A DNA stretch of 64,000 nucleotides from Bacteroidales bacterium (GTDB taxonomy: Bacteria; Bacteroidota; Bacteroidia; Bacteroidales; WCHB1-69): contig JAGCVQ010000089.1 in the NCBI GenBank assembly GCA_017962275.1, positions 62-64,061 on the forward strand. The letters run 5' to 3'. The translations under genes were made by a program, and so were the position numbers. Below the pieces are notes generated by a model. That model made no database searches, was not told where the DNA came from, and saw only the letters and a list, made by a program, of their open reading frames with translations. Positions 1 through 59,998 of this stretch are shown one piece after another (within the stretch, counting starts at the first letter, position 1; every line of letters begins with the position of its first letter).

Positions 1-3000
1 GGAGATGCCGAAGGAGAGCTGCACGGCGCGGAGGGGGATGGTATGGTTTTCCCCATTACTGAATATAGATTTTGTGGCTTTGATGCGCATGAAGTTGCGC
101 ATACCAGAGGGAGTGAGGGTGGTGCCCGAAAGAGTGGCTGCGTTGTCGCTGTTTTTGACCTTGCTCCATTTGAAGTTGGTGCCTGTAACAGGGGTGTAGG
201 AAGGCAACGTGTAGGAAGTGTTGGGGTTGTAGGACAAGTTATAGATATCGCCAATCTGCAACGCAAGTGCCGAGACTTGGCTGGCATCAGTGTTGGAAAT
301 GGTGGACAGACGCGGGTACATACCCTCGCTGTATATCCACGGACGGTCGCTAGCAAAGGTGATTCCCATCATCCCAGAGGTGGAGTGCGCCGTAACCCCC
401 GTCACATCCTCCTCGTTCACACCTTTGTAGGAGCACATCTGCTTGTCGTAATGGAGGTTGTGGAGCATGGTCGTGTCCGACGTGTAACCGCACACGGCAC
501 CGACCATCGATGAACCCTCGACCCAGCCGGCGGAGTAGCCATAGCCGGATGACACGGTAGGATCTTGCTGCAAACCAACTATACCACCCACCAGCGAAAT
601 ACCTTTCACGATCCCCGTGTGGTAACAATCGGTGAAATGGCAGGCCTCCGACAGATGTCCTATCAGGCCCCCCACAAAGTAGTGACCCATCACCAAACCG
701 CTGTTGAAGCACGCACTGACACTGGAAGAATCTGTCAATGAGCCGACGATACCGCCGACGTAATCGTCTGACTTCGATTCGCAGACAGTACCCGCGTTGA
801 AGCACCCGTTGATGCGGGTGCCTTTGGTACAAAGGCCCGCGATGCCGCCAATGTAGTTGCCCTCAGCGATGATGGTGCCCAAGTGCTCACAACCGTCGAT
901 AATACCGTTATCCATCTTGCCCACGACGCCGCCGATATAGTTGCCATGCGAAGGAACCCGGCTTTGTTCGTCCACATAGCAGCTGCGGATTTCCGACTGC
1001 GTGCCGTTGGAATAACCGGCAATGCAACCGACGTAGGACATAATGGATTTATTGTAACTGTTATTATAAGAGGTGTCGGCCACCAAGATGCCGTTGTGGT
1101 TGTATCCTACGATGCCACCGACGGTGTCAATGGTAACACCGGGGTTAATTGACAAGTGCGAGCGACAAGAGTCGATAGTGCCGAAATCGTTGTAGCCGCA
1201 GATGCCGCCGAAACAGCTTCCGTGGGTGTAGGTGGCGTTTTCGATTTGGGTCATATCTGTCTGGCAATAGACAATGCGACCGTAGTGGTTGGTGCCACAG
1301 ATGAAACCGAGGTTGCGGCCTGTGACAGCAGAAAGCCTGCTGGGGCTATGGTAGTTACTGCCGACATCTTGAGTTATGAAACAGTTGCGGATGGTGCCAC
1401 TGTTGAGGTATCCGCAGAGGATGGCGCGGTGGTTGCCGGTGGTATTATGGTTGGTTATGGCGCCGGCGATGGTGAGGTTTTTGACGGAGCCGCCGTAGAT
1501 GTAGCCGAAGAAGCCCTGGTTGTCGCTACCTGGGATGAGGAAATTGGAGACGGTGTGGCCCGCGCCGTCGAAATGGCCGAGGAAGGGGCGGTTAGGGGTG
1601 CCGATGGAGGTCCAGAGGTCGAGGACGTTGTACTGTTGCCCACTGCTGGTGGTGCCGTGGAAAGCGAGGTCGACGTTGGCGTTGAGTTTGAAGTAGAGGT
1701 TGCGGCCGCCATCGGTTATTCTAACATATTGAGAGGCGGAGCTGTTGTTCGGTGTACTGGTGAGGAAGGTTTGGTCGGTTATGCGATAAAAGCCCGACCC
1801 TTGGTTGATGATGGTGCGGAATTTCTTTAATTCATCCGCATTTTTGATAATTATCGGATTCGCCTCGGTAAGGTTCACCCACAGCTGCACCTTGCGATAA
1901 ACAGGATCGTTGGTACCGGCGCCCCGGAAGCCCAACGTGATATAGCCCTGGGCAGGATGATTGTTGGTGCTGGGGATGGTGACCGCTATAAGGTTGTTGC
2001 TGGGAGTCGTCCCTATCGACACACAATTGCTGCCGCCAATACGTTGCCAGCTGCCGCCATCGGAATAATTCACCGTGAATTGGTGGGAGACGGTGCTGTA
2101 GGTCTCGGTAGTGTACAACTTGGCCCTCATGGCAGAGGCTTTGGAAAGTATGGCGTTGATGCTTTGAACGCCCTTGAGTTGGGGATAATAATCGTCTTGG
2201 TAGTACCAGATACTGTCGCTGCTGTCATCTCCCAACAGAGGTTTCATATATTGCTCTCCCATCATGGTATCAGTAGGCAAACCTTTGGCCACGCCTGTCT
2301 GATCACTGCCGTCAATGCCACCTGCTGTTGACATTTGCTTGTCGTAGTAACAATTATGAATGGTTATGGGTGATGGGTTATTGGTTATTGAGGAGCCGAC
2401 GATGGAGCCGAGATGGAGGCCAGTAGAGCGTACGGTGTTGGAAACGTAGCAATTTTGAATGGTTATGGGTGATGGGTTATTGGTTGTTGAGCCGTCTATG
2501 GCGCCGCAAATACCACCGACGTATTTCCTATTTTCACCATTAACGATTCCAGCGTTATAGCAATTCTGAATTCTGCATTCAGGATTCTGAATTAATCCCA
2601 CGAGACCGCCGACCCAGTTGTCAGCATTGGGATTGCCGGGCTGGGCAGTCACGATGCCGGTGTTGAAACAATTGTACATTGTACATTGTACATTGTTCAT
2701 TGTGCCTATAAGGCCGCCGATATAGGGACAATCGGCCGTACCGGTAATGTCGCCTAAGTTGGCGGAATTCTTCACATTGCCATCCTTGGCGATAATACCG
2801 CCGATACATTGGATACCCATGACATCGACGTAGTTGAAGCAGCCGATGATGCTGTCGTTTGCGGTCAATGAGACACCGGCGATGCCGCCGACGGTAACAC
2901 CGTACATGTTGTCGCTTGTATTATTATATTTTTTGACGGAGCAGTTCTCGATGCGGCCGCCGTTGAGAATGGCGCAGACGGCACCGGCAGTGTCGGCACC

Positions 3001-5865
3001 GACGATGGTTTCGACAGTGATGTTTAGGTCATACACCTTGCCCGTAAGGGTGCCGAAAAGGCCGACCACAGACCGGGTTGAATTAAGTCGGGCGAGAGTA
3101 TGGTTATTGCCAAGGAATGTGCCCGCGAACCGTTTCGTGCCGATAGGAATCCAGTTGGATGTGATATCGGACAAGTTGATGTCGTTGGTGAGGCTGAAGA
3201 CGATGTCCTGCACATAATGCGGAAGGAGATAGTCTTTATAGATTACCATGTAGTTCCCGTTCACGATGTTTCGCAGATTATTCAGATCATGAAAGTTGTC
3301 AACGGTCATCGTGTCGGACAGCGGAAGACTGTCTAATGCTAATCGTGGTGTACAGGCGGCGATGGCGTCCATGCGGACGGACGAGCTGTCAGTCCAAGTC
3401 AGTCGAGGGTAGTGTCCCTCCTCGTAGAGCCAGTCGTCGTCGCCCATATACTCTCGCACAAGGGCTTCGGGACCGATGAAGTAGCGTGTAGCTACTTTTG
3501 TCGCCCCTTCACAGACGGGATTGACATGGTAGTCGTTGTAAAACGTTGTATATGCTGATTCCACCTCCACTTGATTGCCAGTAAGCACACCGACATTGTA
3601 ACAATCTGTAGAGACGTGGTGCACCGCGTCTCTACAGTGTCCAAGGGGGTGTACGGTGCCATTGGCGGCCGTGATGTCCCCCGTGTTGAAGCATCGTTCA
3701 AGGATGCAGGTGTCGGCGTTCACATAGCCCACCAAACCGGCAGCGTACCCGCTGCCACTATTGACCACTTTGCAGCTGTTGAAACAGCCCGTGATGCGGA
3801 TGCTGCTGAGTGCCTCACTGTCTGTTCCCACCGAGCCTATCAGAGCGGCACAGTTGTCGCCGTTGAACTGTAGGGGCGTACCTGCGTGTGCGCCCTTGAC
3901 CACGGCGCAATTCTCGAAAGAACCGCCCATGACGTTGGTGGCCAAGGCGGCCGACGAACCTCTGCAGCCGGTGATGTGCGGGTCTTCGAGGATCAAATTG
4001 CTTATCTCGCCCTTGCTATAAACAAAGAGTGCACGATCGGTGCCGTTCGTCATCGTTAGGTTCATCAGCTTATGCCCCCGGCCGTCGTAAAAACCGGTGA
4101 AACAGGTGTCGGCGTTCTTGCCGATGGAGACCCAGTCACCCACGCTGGCAAGGTCGATGTCGGCGGTCTGTATCCAGTGAATGTGCGGAAGAGAGTCGTG
4201 AGGAATCAGGAAGCGGTGGTAAACGAAGTCCTGGTTTGCGTTGATGCCGTCGCGGAAGGCGAGGAAGTCTTCCAGATTGCTGATGAGGAAGGGGTTCTCG
4301 GCGGAACCGACGTACGGGGGGATGTTGATCACCGCATCGTAATAGCGGGTGCGTCCAGCCACCTCTACGGTGAGGCGCACCACACCCTGCTTTTGCAGAT
4401 AGACATTCCAGCTGTTGTCGGGCGCATAGAACTCTCTGCGGACAGCATCGGGCCAGAGACTGTCAAGGGTCCACGTAATATCCAGACTGTCACACCCTTT
4501 CCACAGCACGAACGACTCGGTGAGGTAGGAGAGTTTCATGTGCTTGCGCTCATTGTCATTCATGTTGTTGATGGTACTTTGGCCGTTGCCATTCGGTTTC
4601 ATGAAGACATCGAGAAACGGAACGAGGGCGGCGGTCACAATGGAATCTTGGGGGTAATCCAATTCGAGGCGGTAGGTGACATTTATCGGATCGTTGAATG
4701 GATCCGGGTAGGGGTAAACATTGCACAGATAGGTGTTTTTCCACAAGCTGGGCTTCTGATTTTTGATGTCGAAATACATCATGCTGTAATAGGTCATGTC
4801 GTAGGTGCTGAGGGCTGCGGCACCTCTATTGTCCCGCCAATCTGCCGGAACCCATGACGATCCAGGAATTGACGGAAGGTCGCTCAGCTGCCAGTCGAAG
4901 TAGCAGGTGTCCACCCGGATGCTATCAACATCCGGATCATAGCTATTGGTGCTGTTAGGGGAGAGCGCATAGCCGTAGATGCCGCCTATGTGGTTGTTGA
5001 CAATTTCTTCGTCCGTGCCAATACCGCCGTTAGTTGGGTTCGCCCCCGAGAGGGCTGTGCCGACCATATCGGTGGTGCGGACAATCATGGAGGAGTAACA
5101 CTGACGCACGGTACCTTTCTCCACCTTGCCGACCAAGCCAGCAACATAGTCACCGGTGCAATCAACATGCCCGGAAGCGAAGCAAACGCTGACTTCGGGC
5201 AACAAAGTGTCATGGCGGGTCATCAGTCCGACCAAGCCGCCCACCTTGTCGCCGCTTGTGCGGATGCTGCCCTCGAAGAAACAGTCGTTGATATGGCCTC
5301 CTGAGAGTTCGCCCACAATACCGCCGATGTTGCTGGCACCACCTCTGATGTAGGAATTGACAATACCGAGTTTTTCGATGTGTGCATCCCCCTCCATTTT
5401 CGAAAAGAAGCCTACACCCACAGTGCCGTCCGGACAGTCGATGTACATACCGCTGATCGTATGCATATCACCGAGTAAGTGGCCTTTGAACACAACTGTC
5501 TCGGGCCAAACCGTCCATGTTGGGTCAATCTCACCGTCGCAGGCAGCCAGATTCCCCTGGTTGAGGATGATGTCATTCGGTATCAAGAAATACTTGCCTT
5601 CGCCGTAGGCGGGAATGGTGTCGTAGTCACCGTAGGTGGGAGGCGTTGTGCTACAGATGTACTCTTTGCTGTAGCCATATTTGTAAAAGTAGAACTCGTT
5701 GCCAGTACTGAGGCAGTTGGCAAAAGCCACTAATTCATTAGCCTTACGGATCCTGTACGGATTATTGGGCGCGCCATGACCACCCTGTGCAAAAACGGAG
5801 TTGCCGTAGAACCAAAAGGTCATTAATATAGTGATGCAAGTACTAAGTATAAATCTTCTTTTCAT
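1..5865 (-). CDS. Giant secreted GLUG-motif repeat surface protein. The N-terminal 1955 codons are in the window; the C-terminus lies beyond the window start.
   Basis: It is absent from the ORF track because it runs off the left edge. My reverse-strand translation from ATG 5865-5863 gives MKRRFILSTCITILMTFWFYGNSVFAQ, a signal peptide. No listed minus-strand ORF in 1-5865 uses this frame, which fits an uninterrupted frame. The protein carries many (V/I)GG(L/I)(V/I)G...C(Y/F)N.G(I/V) units, matching the GLUG motif. The + strand ORFs here are antisense artefacts. Confidence 0.8.
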   Translation of the reverse strand, partial: MKRRFILSTCITILMTFWFYGNSVFAQGGHGAPNNPYRIRKANELVAFANCLSTGNEFYFYKYGYSKEYICSTTPPTYGDYDTIPAYGEGKYFLIPNDIILNQGNLAACDGEIDPTWTVWPETVVFKGHLLGDMHTISGMYIDCPDGTVGVGFFSKMEGDAHIEKLGIVNSYIRGGASNIGGIVGELSGGHINDCFFEGSIRTSGDKVGGLVGLMTRHDTLLPEVSVCFASGHVDCTGDYVAGLVGKVEKGTVRQCYSSMIVRTTDMVGTALSGANPTNGGIGTDEEIVNNHIGGIYGYALSPNSTNSYDPDVDSIRVDTCYFDWQLSDLPSIPGSSWVPADWRDNRGAAALSTYDMTYYSMMYFDIKNQKPSLWKNTYLCNVYPYPDPFNDPINVTYRLELDYPQDSIVTAALVPFLDVFMKPNGNGQSTINNMNDNERKHMKLSYLTESFVLWKGCDSLDITWTLDSLWPDAVRREFYAPDNSWNVYLQKQGVVRLTVEVAGRTRYYDAVINIPPYVGSAENPFLISNLEDFLAFRDGINANQDFVYHRFLIPHDSLPHIHWIQTADIDLASVGDWVSIGKNADTCFTGFYDGRGHKLMNLTMTNGTDRALFVYSKGEISNLILEDPHITGCRGSSAALATNVMGGSFENCAVVKGAHAGTPLQFNGDNCAALIGSVGTDSEALSSIRITGCFNSCKVVNSGSGYAAGLVGYVNADTCILERCFNTGDITAANGTVHPLGHCRDAVHHVSTDCYNVGVLTGNQVEVESAYTTFYNDYHVNPVCEGATKVATRYFIGPEALVREYMGDDDWLYEEGHYPRLTWTDSSSVRMDAIAACTPRLALDSLPLSDTMTVDNFHDLNNLRNIVNGNYMVIYKDYLLPHYVQDIVFSLTNDINLSDITSNWIPIGTKRFAGTFLGNNHTLARLNSTRSVVGLFGTLTGKVYDLNITVETIVGADTAGAVCAILNGGRIENCSVKKYNNTSDNMYGVTVGGIAGVSLTANDSIIGCFNYVDVMGIQCIGGIIAKDGNVKNSANLGDITGTADCPYIGGLIGTMNNVQCTMYNCFNTGIVTAQPGNPNADNWVGGLVGLIQNPECRIQNCYNAGIVNGENRKYVGGICGAIDGSTTNNPSPITIQNCYVSNTVRSTGLHLGSIVGSSITNNPSPITIHNCYYDKQMSTAGGIDGSDQTGVAKGLPTDTMMGEQYMKPLLGDDSSDSIWYYQDDYYPQLKGVQSINAILSKASAMRAKLYTTETYSTVSHQFTVNYSDGGSWQRIGGSNCVSIGTTPSNNLIAVTIPSTNNHPAQGYITLGFRGAGTNDPVYRKVQLWVNLTEANPIIIKNADELKKFRTIINQGSGFYRITDQTFLTSTPNNSSASQYVRITDGGRNLYFKLNANVDLAFHGTTSSGQQYNVLDLWTSIGTPNRPFLGHFDGAGHTVSNFLIPGSDNQGFFGYIYGGSVKNLTIAGAITNHNTTGNHRAILCGYLNSGTIRNCFITQDVGSNYHSPSRLSAVTGRNLGFICGTNHYGRIVYCQTDMTQIENATYTHGSCFGGICGYNDFGTIDSCRSHLSINPGVTIDTVGGIVGYNHNGILVADTSYNNSYNKSIMSYVGCIAGYSNGTQSEIRSCYVDEQSRVPSHGNYIGGVVGKMDNGIIDGCEHLGTIIAEGNYIGGIAGLCTKGTRINGCFNAGTVCESKSDDYVGGIVGSLTDSSSVSACFNSGLVMGHYFVGGLIGHLSEACHFTDCYHTGIVKGISLVGGIVGLQQDPTVSSGYGYSAGWVEGSSMVGAVCGYTSDTTMLHNLHYDKQMCSYKGVNEEDVTGVTAHSTSGMMGITFASDRPWIYSEGMYPRLSTISNTDASQVSALALQIGDIYNLSYNPNTSYTLPSYTPVTGTNFKWSKVKNSDNAATLSGTTLTPSGMRNFMRIKATKSIFSNGENHTIPLRAVQLSFGIS
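2675..2702. repeat. Heptamer tandem repeat (TACATTG)x3 plus TTCATTG inside the GLUG CDS
   Basis: attg-TACATTG-TACATTG-TACATTG-TTCATTG encodes MNNVQCTMYNC on the minus strand. The same heptamer array occurs intergenically at 10989-11016. Confidence 0.85.
3607..3636. repeat. REP type B embedded in frame inside the GLUG gene
   Basis: The sequence is TGTAGAGACGTGGTGCACCGCGTCTCTACA. It is codon-aligned and encodes exactly CRDAVHHVST. A 22-nt core is identical to the intergenic copy at 58388-58409. Confidence 0.8.
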
Positions 5866-7405: not shown

Positions 7406-7435
7406 TGTAGAGACGCGCCATGGCACGTCTCTACA
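7406..7435. repeat. REP type B variant between the lpxD stop and the AraC-like gene start
   Basis: The sequence is TGTAGAGACGCGCCATGGCACGTCTCTACA. It has the same outer arms as the other REPs with a GC-rich centre. Confidence 0.8.
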
Positions 7436-18736: not shown

Positions 18737-18766
18737 TGTAGAGACGCAAAATTTTGCGTCTCTACA
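18737..18766. repeat. REP type A, perfect 30-nt palindrome
   Basis: The sequence is TGTAGAGACGCAAAATTTTGCGTCTCTACA. It lies about 100 nt upstream of rayT. Confidence 0.9.
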
Positions 18767-18868: not shown

Positions 18869-19462
18869 ATGACAAACGAATTATTCAAGAACCGGTATCG
18901 CATACCGTCCGCACGCGCACCTTGGCATGATTACAGGCACGGAACCTATTTCGTGACCATCTGTACAAAAAACAGAGAACATTCTTTCGGGGAAATCACA
19001 AACGATGCCACTGGAAATCACATAATGAGTCTGTCGGAAATTGGCAAAAATGCCGATGTGTGCTGGCAAGAAATCCCATCGCATTTCCCGCACGTCCAAA
19101 CGTTGTCTCGGGTAATCATGCCCAACCATATTCATGGGATTTTGACCATTAACCCCATCGAAGGGACGCGAAATTTTGCGTCTCTACAACCGGGAGAATC
19201 GCAACAGAATGGGCAAACACGACAAACCAACAACGTCATCGTGCCAAACAACCGATTCGGCCCTCAATCGAGAAATCTGGCATCGGTGATGCGCGGATTC
19301 AAAATCGGTGTCACCAAATTCTCACGGCAAAACCGAATTCCGTTTGAATGGCAGCCTCGATATTACGAACACCTCATCCGAAACATGGACGAGTTGTATT
19401 TCATCATGGATTACATTGAAAACAACGTGGCTAAATGGGAGGAGGACGGATTTTATGGGTGA
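18869..19462 (+). CDS. rayT: REP-associated tyrosine transposase (RayT; IS200/IS605-like Y1 HUH enzyme)
   Basis: It contains GTYFVTICTKNREHSFG, the HUH motif MPNHIHGIL and the catalytic-Tyr region RYYEHLIRN. REP palindromes flank it on both sides. Confidence 0.85.
   Translation: MTNELFKNRYRIPSARAPWHDYRHGTYFVTICTKNREHSFGEITNDATGNHIMSLSEIGKNADVCWQEIPSHFPHVQTLSRVIMPNHIHGILTINPIEGTRNFASLQPGESQQNGQTRQTNNVIVPNNRFGPQSRNLASVMRGFKIGVTKFSRQNRIPFEWQPRYYEHLIRNMDELYFIMDYIENNVAKWEEDGFYG
19160..19188. repeat. REP type A copy embedded in frame inside the rayT CDS
   Basis: The sequence is GAAGGGACGCGAAATTTTGCGTCTCTACA. The right arm matches 15/15 and the left arm is partly degenerate. It encodes EGTRNFASLQ, between the HUH and Tyr motifs. 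Confidence 0.75.
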
Positions 19463-19589: not shown

Positions 19590-19619
19590 TGTAGAGACGC
19601 ATAATTATGCGTCTCTACA
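19590..19619. repeat. REP type A, perfect palindrome with a variant centre
   Basis: The sequence is TGTAGAGACGCATAATTATGCGTCTCTACA. It lies downstream of rayT. It is preceded by a ~38-nt flank (ATTGCCATCYGCGG.GAAA...CCCACGT) that is shared with the 18737 copy. Confidence 0.9.
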
Positions 19620-31293: not shown

Positions 31294-32580
31294 ATGAATT
31301 TCGTACAAGAATTGAGATGGCGCGGCATGTTGCACGACATCATGCCCGGAACCGAAGAGTTGTTTAACAAAGAAGTCTGTTCCGTCTATCTGGGCATCGA
31401 CCCGACGGCGGATTCACTGCATATCGGCCATTTGGTGGGCATCATGATGCTCTCGCACCTGCAGCGTTGCGGCCACCGGCCTATTGCCTTGCTTGGCGGC
31501 GCTACCGGCATGATTGGCGATCCCTCCGGCAAGAGCCAAGAGCGTAACCTGCTGGACGAAGCGACGTTGCGTCACAACCAGGAGTGCATCAAGAAGCAGC
31601 TGAGCAAGTTCCTCGACTTCGACAGCAAGGAACCCAACGCAGCCCTGTTGGTCAACAATTACGACTGGATGAGCAAGTTCTCCTTCCTGGAGTTTATCCG
31701 CGATGTCGGCAAACACCTGACTGTCAACTATATGATGGCCAAGGATTCCGTGAAGAAGCGTTTCAACGGCGAAGGCGACGGCATGTCGTTCACCGAGTTC
31801 TCCTACCAGCTGGTACAGGGCTACGACTTTCTGCATCTCTACCAGACGCAGAACTGCAAGGTGCAGATGGGCGGCTCCGACCAGTGGGGCAACATCACCA
31901 CCGGCACGGAGCTCATCCGCCGTATGCTCAACGGCGAGGCCTACGCGCTCACCTGTCCGCTCATCACCAAGGCAGACGGCGGCAAGTTCGGCAAGACCGA
32001 GAAGGGCAACGTCTGGCTTGATCCCGCCCGCACCTCCCCGTATGCCTTCTACCAGTTCTGGCTCAACTGCTCCGACGACGACAGCAAGCGCTATATCCGC
32101 ATCTTCACTCACTTCATGAAGGAGGAAATCGAGGAAATGGAGCGTCAGCATGATGCCGAACCACATTTGCGTATCCTACAGAAGGCGCTGGCTAAGGATT
32201 TGACGGTGCGCGTGCACTCGCAAGAGGACTACGACGCGGCCGTCAACGCCTCCGAAATCCTCTTCGGCAAAGGCACTGCCGAGAACCTCGCGGCCCTCTC
32301 AGAGGAGATGTTCCTCTCTGTGTTCGAAGGTGTTCCGCAGTTCGAGGTGCCGATGTCCGTCCTCGACGAGACCTGCGGCGTGGTGGATTTCCTCGCCAAG
32401 CACACTCAGGTTTTCAATTCCAACGGCGAAGCCCGCCGTATGCTGAAAGACAACGGCGTCGCCATCAACAAGACCAAAGTGAAAGATGATAAAATGATGA
32501 CGAAAGACGACCTCCTCAACGGCAAATACGTCCTCGTCCAGAAAGGCAAGAAGAATTATTATATTGTGAAATTCATTTAA
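31294..32580 (+). CDS. tyrS: Tyrosine--tRNA ligase
   Basis: The HIGH region is [10 protein letters not shown] and the KMSKS-like motif is KFGKT. A C-terminal S4-like domain is present. 428 aa. Confidence 0.93.
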
Positions 32581-32586
32581 CCCATT

Positions 32587-32616
32587 TGTAGAGACGCAAT
32601 ATTTTGCGTCTCTACA
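32587..32616. repeat. REP type A (one arm mismatch)
   Basis: The sequence is TGTAGAGACGCAATATTTTGCGTCTCTACA. It begins 7 nt after the tyrS stop. Confidence 0.85.
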
Positions 32617-57720: not shown

Positions 57721-57746
57721 GTGGCGTTGGGAACAGGTGATTAAGC

Positions 57747-57772
57747 AGGGACGTAAAATTTTGCGTCTCTAC
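57747..57772. repeat. Degenerate REP type A overlapping the trmH-family stop
   Basis: The sequence is AGGGACGTAAAATTTTGCGTCTCTAC. The TAG stop of the gene is the TAG of the REP arm. Confidence 0.65.
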
Positions 57773-58386: not shown

Positions 58387-58416
58387 CGTAGAGACGTGGT
58401 GCACCGCGTTTCTACT
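58387..58416. repeat. REP type B (two arm mismatches) abutting the dnaB stop
   Basis: The sequence is CGTAGAGACGTGGTGCACCGCGTTTCTACT. It overlaps the dnaB TAG at 58415-58417. Confidence 0.75.
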
Positions 58417-59998
58417 AAAATGCAAAATCATCCTCGTATCCCTGCTGCGACGGGTCTCCGCTACCGCTGCCGCCGTCGTCGCCGTTGGCCGCACTGTCGT
58501 AGTATTGGGCCGAGAAGTTCTCGTTGGGGGTGATGCCCGCGCCGGGGGAGACGTAGCTGCCGCCCTCGCCGAACGAACCCTCGCTCACATCGCAGAACTT
58601 CGTGAACTGGCTCTGGAAGCGTACTTTCACGTTGCCGGTGCTGCCGTGACGGTTCTTCTCGAACATGATTTCCGCCATGCCGTCGCTCGGGGTGTTGTCC
58701 TCGAAAGTGTCCAAATGGTAGTATTCCGGGCGGTAGATGAAGAGCACCATGTCGGCGTCCTGCTCGATGGAACCGGACTCACGCAGGTCGGACAATTGCG
58801 GGCGTTTGGAGCCGCCGCGGGTCTCCACGGCACGACTCAACTGAGAAAGTGCGATGACGGGAATGTTCAGCTCCTTGGCCAACGCCTTGAGGGATCGGGA
58901 GATATAACTGATCTCCTGTTCGCGGTTGCCGCCGTGCTTCGAACTGTCGGTGCCGGCCTGCATCAGCTGCAGGTAGTCGATGATGACCATCTGGATGTCG
59001 TATTTGTGTTTCAGACGGCGGCACTTGGCGCGCAGGTCGAACACGGAAAGCGCCGGGGTATCGTCGATGATGAGGTTCGAGCTGTTCAGCTTGCTGACGT
59101 TTTCCCACAGCTTCGACCACTCCACATCCGAGAGCGTACCCTTCGAGATATGGTCGGAGGGGATGCCTGATTCAATGGAGAAGAGACGGTGAACCAGCTG
59201 GGTAGCAGACATTTCCAGCGAGAAAAAGGCAATAGGCTGATCGAAATCGATGGCGGCGTTGCGGGCCACGGAGAGCACGAAGGAGGTCTTACCCATACCG
59301 GGACGGGCGGCGAGGATCACGAGGTCGGACTTCTGCCAACCGCCGGTTTTCTCGTCGATGGCGCGGATGCCGCACGGCACACCCTGTAATTCGTCCTGCG
59401 ATTCACGGATTTCCGACAGCTCGCTGAGGGCGGTGCTTACCACATCGCCCAGCTCCTTGCTGTCGCGGTGCAGGTTGCTCTCCACGATGGAGAAGATTTT
59501 CGTCTCGGCGGCGTCAAGCAGCTCCAACACGTCCCGGCTCTCGTCGTAGGAGTCGGTGACAATGGTGTTGCACTGACGGATGAGCTCGCGCAGGATGAAT
59601 TTCTCCATCACAATGCGGGAGTGGTATTCCACGTTGGCGGCGGAATTCAGCCGGCTGGTCAGACCTGCCACGTAGGAGGCGCCTCCGCAGAGTTCCAGCT
59701 GCTTGTTCTTTTTCAGCTGGTTGGTGACCGTCAGCACATCGATGGGCTGCGAAGCGGAGAAAAGTTGTCGAATCGCGGTGAATATCTGTTGATTAGCTTC
59801 CACATAGAACATTTCGGGGCGCAGCATGGCGAGCACCTCGGTCACGGCGTTGTCGTCGATCATCAGGGCGCCGAGCACCGCCTCCTCGAACTCCACGGCC
59901 TGCGGGGTGAGCTTGCCGGTGGTGCCCAAAAGCGTGTCGATGCGGTTATATGACATTGTCCGAGAGGGACGGTTTGTTGTAATCGTTTCGTTATCCAT
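58415..59998 (-). CDS. dnaB: Replicative DNA helicase DnaB
   Basis: Walker A is ILAARPGMGKTSF. Other motifs are IIDYLQLM, ALSQLSRAVE and SGSIEQDADMV. It carries an acidic C-terminal tail of about 60 aa and no intein. Confidence 0.93.
   Translation of the reverse strand: MDNETITTNRPSRTMSYNRIDTLLGTTGKLTPQAVEFEEAVLGALMIDDNAVTEVLAMLRPEMFYVEANQQIFTAIRQLFSASQPIDVLTVTNQLKKNKQLELCGGASYVAGLTSRLNSAANVEYHSRIVMEKFILRELIRQCNTIVTDSYDESRDVLELLDAAETKIFSIVESNLHRDSKELGDVVSTALSELSEIRESQDELQGVPCGIRAIDEKTGGWQKSDLVILAARPGMGKTSFVLSVARNAAIDFDQPIAFFSLEMSATQLVHRLFSIESGIPSDHISKGTLSDVEWSKLWENVSKLNSSNLIIDDTPALSVFDLRAKCRRLKHKYDIQMVIIDYLQLMQAGTDSSKHGGNREQEISYISRSLKALAKELNIPVIALSQLSRAVETRGGSKRPQLSDLRESGSIEQDADMVLFIYRPEYYHLDTFEDNTPSDGMAEIMFEKNRHGSTGNVKVRFQSQFTKFCDVSEGSFGEGGSYVSPGAGITPNENFSAQYYDSAANGDDGGSGSGDPSQQGYEDDFAF

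What the first reader, a model, noticed from the sequence alone, without database searches (positions are those of the whole stretch)
3607..3636. REP type B inserted codon-aligned and in frame within the GLUG surface-protein gene
The 30-nt palindrome occupies exactly 10 codons (CRDAVHHVST) of the minus-strand CDS. Its 22-nt core, GTAGAGACGTGGTGCACCGCGT, is identical to the intergenic copy next to dnaB (58388-58409). It sits in the linker between two GLUG units (...NGTVHPLGH[CRDAVHHVST]DCYNVGV...), where other units carry an unrelated segment of about 8 aa. This looks like a REP transposed into, and tolerated within, a protein-coding repeat. The result is a 30-nt hairpin in the mRNA and a new peptide segment.
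Basis: seen in the sequence. Interest (0 to 1): 0.65.

Follow-up and report, generated by a model that had tools for sequence, protein, structure and literature searches.

The report
In-frame REP palindrome rewriting a gene segment
A 30-base copy of a genome-wide palindromic repeat (REP) is translated as ten amino acids inside a giant surface-protein gene of a rumen Bacteroidales bacterium, but relatives show that it overwrote an existing ten-codon segment and added no length; in-frame REPs in genes are already known from other bacteria.

Summary
Window 3606-3637 is a 16+16-nt palindrome lying in frame (CRDAVHHVST) in an intact minus-strand GLUG gene of at least 1,955 codons, and its 22-nt core is identical to the copy at 58388-58409. 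It belongs to a GTAG-type REP family with a 30-nt unit (TGTAGAGACG-N10-CGTCTCTACA). The window holds six full copies and a distant RAYT-like gene (18869-19462) flanked by two of them.

The "transposed in" reading is only partly supported. All 13 orthologues carry a segment of about the same length here, the segment completes the 31-residue GLUG repeat period, and no empty site was found. The close orthologues carry a degenerate REP-like 30-mer (18-20 of 30 bases identical, among the most REP-like 30-mers in their loci). The outgroups are unrelated in sequence.

A bootstrapped local tree nests the window and RUG182 inside the non-REP lineages, so the perfect REP is derived. At least six bases changed on one short branch, all to the REP base. 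The best reading is therefore in-situ, templated replacement of an older REP-like linker.

The same family sits in frame in AroA, a glycosyltransferase and the RAYT-like gene itself. AroA shows three REP subtypes at a single codon position in three species. Intragenic REPs are a known kind (Rickettsia RPEs, Opitutus), so interest is moderate.

The parts
3607..3636 (-). 30-nt REP unit, subtype B (inner 10-mer TGGTGCACCG). It is read in frame as CRDAVHHVST. The palindrome extends to 3606-3637.
   Evidence: the unit length of 30 nt comes from the flanks of 93 copies
1..5865 (-). 5' part of a giant secreted GLUG-repeat protein gene. The ATG is at 5865-5863, the N-terminus looks like a signal peptide, and the 3' end lies beyond the window. 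Orthologous ORFs are open for about 2,940-3,160 codons and also run off their loci, so these are lower bounds.
   Evidence: dN/dS 0.20-0.29 against five orthologues
58387..58416 (.). Intergenic subtype-B REP with one arm mutated (CGTTTCTAC). It abuts, and may overlap by a base, the stop of the minus-strand ORF 58415-59998.
7406..7435 (.). Intergenic REP, inner 10-mer CGCCATGGCA. It lies 3 nt after the stop of one ORF and 20 nt before the start of the next.
18737..18766 (.). REP (inner 10-mer CAAAATTTTG) 103 nt upstream of the RAYT-like gene; left flank of the REPtron-like unit.
18869..19462 (+). 197-aa distant relative of REP-associated tyrosine transposases (RAYT). It has the HUH motif MPNHIHGIL and the C-terminal motif WQPRYYEHLIRN.
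   Evidence: NCBIfam NF047646 E 4.8e-11, 42.7 bits against a cut-off of 80; PDB 4er8 TnpA-REP E 0.0046; homologues lie next to REPs in nine other loci
19160..19188 (+). Degenerate REP inside the RAYT-like gene, read in frame as EGTRNFASLQ, between the HUH and Tyr motifs.
19590..19619 (.). REP (inner 10-mer CATAATTATG) 128 nt downstream of the RAYT-like gene; right flank of the REPtron-like unit.
32587..32616 (.). Intergenic REP (inner 10-mer CAATATTTTG), 7 nt after the stop of ORF 31294-32580.
57745..57772 (.). Degenerate intergenic REP (GCAGGGACG-TAAAATTTTG-CGTCTCTAC).

Best explanation
The 30 nt are a copy of a GTAG-type REP, a hairpin-forming repeat associated with a RAYT-like HUH/Tyr transposase that is encoded in the same window. 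The unit is exactly 30 nt. It is open in two of three frames on either strand, reading CRDxxxxVST or VETxxxxSLQ, so it can sit in a coding sequence without breaking it. Here it encodes one linker of a GLUG repeat unit in an intact, expressed-looking giant surface-protein gene.

It did not add length. The common ancestor of the closest orthologues already had a 10-codon, REP-like linker at this place, most simply an older, decayed REP. On the branch leading to the window genome and RUG182, that linker was rewritten in place to the current subtype-B master sequence by a template-directed event. The event was either REP-to-REP conversion or RAYT-type cleavage and strand transfer at the hairpin.

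Shown directly: family membership, the reading frame, an intact gene, the absence of an indel, the derived state of the perfect REP, and the REP-likeness of the older segment. Inferred: that the older segment was itself a REP, and the molecular mechanism of the rewriting.
For: 1. Family. The window has six full copies of TGTAGAGACG-N10-CGTCTCTACA. The exact subtype-B 28-mer occurs in 82 loci from gut and rumen MAGs, nearly all labelled Bacteroidales, 12 of them from RUG182. Conservation stops at T(-1) and A(+1), which gives a 30-nt unit. A RAYT-like gene is flanked by two REPs.

2. No indel. All orthologues have the segment, and it completes the 31-aa repeat period.

3. Derived state. In an NJ tree of 1,669 gap-free flanking nucleotides with the REP columns removed, {window, L001, L105, L003} is recovered in 494 of 500 bootstraps, the same clade plus L002 in 497 of 500, and {L004, L005, L106} in 483 of 500. 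'All non-REP orthologues monophyletic' is recovered in 0 of 500. L105 and L005/L106 lie in different subclades yet share an identical non-REP 30-mer. At six positions (7, 10, 13, 14, 20 and 26) no non-REP in-group orthologue has the REP base (my count from the sequences). So at least six changes, all to the REP base, fall on a branch where the flanks changed by about 3-4%.

4. The older segment is REP-like. It shares 18-20 of 30 bases with the REP, which puts it among the top 8e-5 to 2e-4 of all 30-mers in its own locus. L004 matches 16 of 20 stem positions and forms 9 of 15 Watson-Crick pairs. The outgroups are not REP-like (fraction 0.35-0.8).

5. Precedent in the same family. At AroA site 1, three species carry REPs at the identical codon position with three different inner 10-mers (CGCTGCAGCA, ATCTGCACAT, CAAGAATTTG).

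6. Lineage pattern. Exact subtype-B copies are absent from the six orthologue genome assemblies and present 12 times in RUG182.

7. Chemistry. Studied TnpA-REP enzymes cleave at CT next to the hairpin and carry out strand transfer (PMC8266576). This copy has CT immediately 5' of GTAG on both strands.
Against: The gene is mosaic, because identity to a given orthologue varies by region. The identical non-REP haplotype of about 48 nt shared by L105-type and L005-type lineages, which are otherwise about 88% identical, hints that this short patch can move between lineages. That weakens simple parsimony on the tree.

The inferred immediate ancestor lacks GTAG (TCCAG or TCTAG), which should make it a poor RAYT substrate. 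Thirty nucleotides with 60-77% identity are too few for ordinary RecA-dependent conversion.

No intermediate allele was found. Only 13 orthologues were available, and none lies between 93% and 98% identity to the window. Translation through the element is inferred and was not observed. The RAYT-like ORF scores below the curated family cut-off.
Confidence: 0.6

Rival explanations
1. The REP is ancestral and has been retained. On this view a REP entered the linker in the ancestor of the close orthologues and stayed perfect only in the window/RUG182 lineage, kept by selection on the hairpin or by ongoing homogenisation. It decayed elsewhere, and the decayed allele spread among the other lineages by recombination.
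For: The in-group segments are REP-like and the outgroup segments are not. The gene is mosaic, and one non-REP haplotype is shared across subclades. The differences between the REP and the shared in-group core are mostly transitions, as expected for descent (my count).
Against: The window and L001 are nested inside non-REP lineages with 494-497 of 500 bootstraps. The same six non-REP bases are shared by three separate lineages, which would need parallel changes or at least two inter-species transfers of a patch of about 30 nt. Perfect retention over a root-to-tip dS of about 0.25 in a fast-evolving linker has a chance of roughly 0.04 or less (my estimate), unless a REP-specific force acts, and that is the same force the best explanation invokes.
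Confidence: 0.17
2. Two steps. A fresh subtype-B REP inserted next to or into the old linker, adding 10 codons. An in-register 30-nt deletion then removed the old copy, through slippage between the two homeologous 30-mers or under selection for the repeat period.
For: True insertions of this family do exist in coding sequences. AroA site 0 is 10-11 aa longer where the REP is present, and AroA site 2 is 7-8 aa longer. Tandem REP arrays exist (L094, L095, L062). The repeat period of 31 aa suggests strong selection on length.
Against: It needs two events with exact boundaries, yet the flanks GGA CAC and GAT TGT are untouched. No orthologue or metagenome contig has a longer, tandem intermediate. 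The outcome cannot be told apart from one-step replacement.
Confidence: 0.15
3. Chance or selective convergence of a coding segment on the REP sequence, or an assembly artefact.
For: None beyond the fact that the older segment was already 60% identical to the REP.
Against: All 30 bases match a multi-copy element, including its asymmetric inner 10-mer. Shuffles gave 0 matches. At least six coordinated changes fall on a short branch. The same sequence occurs in two independent assemblies that differ by 5% across the gene.
Confidence: 0.02
4. Simple recent transposition that added 30 nt to the gene.
For: The element is an exact family member, and the family does insert into coding sequences elsewhere.
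Against: There is no length difference from any of the 13 orthologues. The segment completes the repeat period. The orthologous 30-mers are homologous to it at 18-20 of 30 positions.
Confidence: 0.04

Closest known systems
Intragenic GTAG/CGTC REPs (Di Nocera, De Gregorio and Rocco 2013, BMC Genomics 14:522, PMC3733652), for example in Opitutus terrae
   Same: A short GTAG-tagged palindrome from a multi-copy, mostly extragenic family that usually lies just 3' of ORFs. Here it sits in frame inside a gene that stays open, in a linker of a modular protein. RAYT-type genes are flanked by the same repeats.
   Different: That survey reported GTAG repeats in Proteobacteria, Cyanobacteria, Chloroflexi and the PVC group, not in Bacteroidetes. 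In this case the orthologues show same-length replacement, not an insert. The unit is a fixed 30 nt, with a conserved outer stem and a variable but palindromic inner 10-mer.
Rickettsia palindromic elements (RPEs), as cited in PMC3733652; original work by Ogata et al. 2000 (from my own knowledge)
   Same: Palindromic repeats found in frame within protein-coding genes that remain functional, each adding a peptide segment.
   Different: RPEs are longer (about 100-150 bp for RPE-1), occur in Alphaproteobacteria, and are described as insertions relative to orthologues. No RAYT association is established for RPE-1.
E. coli REP/BIME with TnpA-REP (RAYT); structure 4er8 (PMC3479197), biochemistry in PMC8266576
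   Same: A 5' GTAG next to a hairpin, and a cognate HUH/Tyr enzyme gene flanked by REPs (a REPtron). The enzymes that have been studied cleave at CT beside the hairpin and perform strand transfer, a chemistry that could swap one hairpin for another.
   Different: The window's protein is only distantly related (E 4.8e-11, below the family cut-off; 4er8 E 0.0046). E. coli REPs have a bulged stem and are extragenic. No activity is known for the enzyme here.
REPINs (Bertels and Rainey 2011, PMC3116915)
   Same: RAYT-associated repeats that are inherited vertically and persist for long periods.
   Different: REPINs are inverted doublets of two REPs. The copies here are singlets and each is itself a near-perfect 30-nt palindrome.
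Homogenisation of REPs by gene conversion (hypothesis of Higgins et al. 1988, listed as reference 33 in PMC3116915)
   Same: It proposes that dispersed REP copies are kept alike by templated correction. That is the process the derived perfect copy at a fixed coding site suggests.
   Different: It was proposed for extragenic REPs in enterobacteria and, as far as I know, has never been shown at an orthologous site. Here it remains an inference.

Membership tests
GTAG-type REP (RAYT-associated repetitive palindrome) | Short (20-40 nt) imperfect palindrome able to form a hairpin | tested here: met
   Arms of 16+16 nt, 94% complementary. RNA fold -34.2 kcal/mol, z -4.6.
GTAG-type REP (RAYT-associated repetitive palindrome) | GTAG tetranucleotide at the 5' foot of the hairpin | tested here: met
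   The sequence is T-GTAG-AGACG...CGTCT-CTAC-A on both strands.
GTAG-type REP (RAYT-associated repetitive palindrome) | Many dispersed copies per genome, mostly extragenic and close to the 3' ends of ORFs | tested here: met
   There are six full copies in 64 kb. The other five are intergenic and lie within about 20 nt of the nearest ORF end, or flank the RAYT-like gene at 103 and 128 nt. RUG182 has 12 exact subtype-B copies.
GTAG-type REP (RAYT-associated repetitive palindrome) | A cognate RAYT gene flanked by the same repeats (REPtron) | tested here: inconclusive
   ORF 18869-19462 is flanked by REPs at 18737 and 19590. It has HUH and Tyr-region motifs and its best hit is NF047646, but at 42.7 bits against a cut-off of 80. 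Enzyme activity was not tested.
Intragenic in-frame palindromic element (RPE-like, 'REP-decorated protein') | The element lies inside an ORF, preserves the frame and has no stop | tested here: met
   (ORF open for 1,957 codons; dN/dS 0.25).
Intragenic in-frame palindromic element (RPE-like, 'REP-decorated protein') | The element is an insertion relative to orthologues that lack it | tested here: not met
   All 13 orthologues have a segment of the same length, and no empty site was found. The feature is met at other genes of the family, AroA sites 0 and 2.
Intragenic in-frame palindromic element (RPE-like, 'REP-decorated protein') | The peptide is actually translated | not testable with these tools
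   This needs proteomics or ribosome profiling of rumen samples.
REPIN | Two REPs in inverted orientation separated by a short spacer, forming one long hairpin | tested here: not met
   The copies in the window are singlets more than 400 nt apart.
MITE | A 70-300 bp element with terminal inverted repeats and target-site duplication | tested here: not met
   The unit is 30 nt, the flanks beyond T/A are not conserved, and no duplication is seen.

The most novel reading that the evidence does not exclude
REP copies of this family may be renewed in place. On this reading a decayed or different-subtype REP at a fixed site, even inside an essential or structural coding sequence, can be overwritten base for base by the currently active master sequence, probably by the RAYT-like enzyme acting on the hairpin. 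Coding sites with orthologues (the GLUG linker and AroA site 1) would then give the first site-resolved evidence for the long-standing idea that REP families are homogenised by conversion and not only by new insertions. They would also show that a selfish repeat can repeatedly rewrite ten codons of a protein without changing its length.
Probability: 0.45. Interest if true: 0.65.

Novelty: new member of a known kind. Interest (0 to 1): 0.45.

Why it matters
In-frame REPs show how a selfish or domesticated repeat can create protein sequence. This family has a 30-nt unit that is open in two frames on both strands, which makes it especially tolerable in genes. It is found in an essential enzyme (AroA), in surface proteins and in its own RAYT-like gene.

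The orthologue series at the GLUG site is unusual because it fixes both the position and the length. That allows the direction of change to be read, and it points to in-place renewal of a REP and not to insertion. If this is general, it bears on how REP families stay homogeneous over long times, an open question since the 1980s. It also gives a concrete substrate pair (old and new 30-mer) for testing an uncharacterised Bacteroidales RAYT.

For annotation, peptides of the form CRDxxxxVST and VETxxxxSLQ in rumen Bacteroidales proteins mark REP-derived segments.

Tried and rejected
- **Structure prediction.** The single-sequence AlphaFold model of window:3301-4140:- came out at pLDDT 31 and is unusable. 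The claim that the segment is a regular rung of the solenoid therefore rests on repeat periodicity alone.
- **Protein database search.** A search with 214 aa around the site returned one 195-aa fragment that starts downstream of the REP, so it added no orthologues.
- **Metagenome scan.** The scan for orthologous sites allowed a gap of 18-48 nt, so that empty sites would also be caught. It found only six contigs, none empty and none with a REP.
- **L008.** This contig is 91-93% identical to the window but begins downstream of the site.
- **Quasipalindrome template-switch correction.** Rejected. Copying one old arm onto the other would not give the REP sequence or its asymmetric inner 10-mer.
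- **Ordinary RecA gene conversion from the 58388 copy.** There is no flanking similarity, so it is unlikely as such.
- **Pfam on the L062 transposase fragment.** No hit. NCBIfam then identified it weakly as a REP-associated tyrosine transposase.
- **Literature string search for GTAGAGACG.** It returned only unrelated primer sequences among the 15 papers listed.
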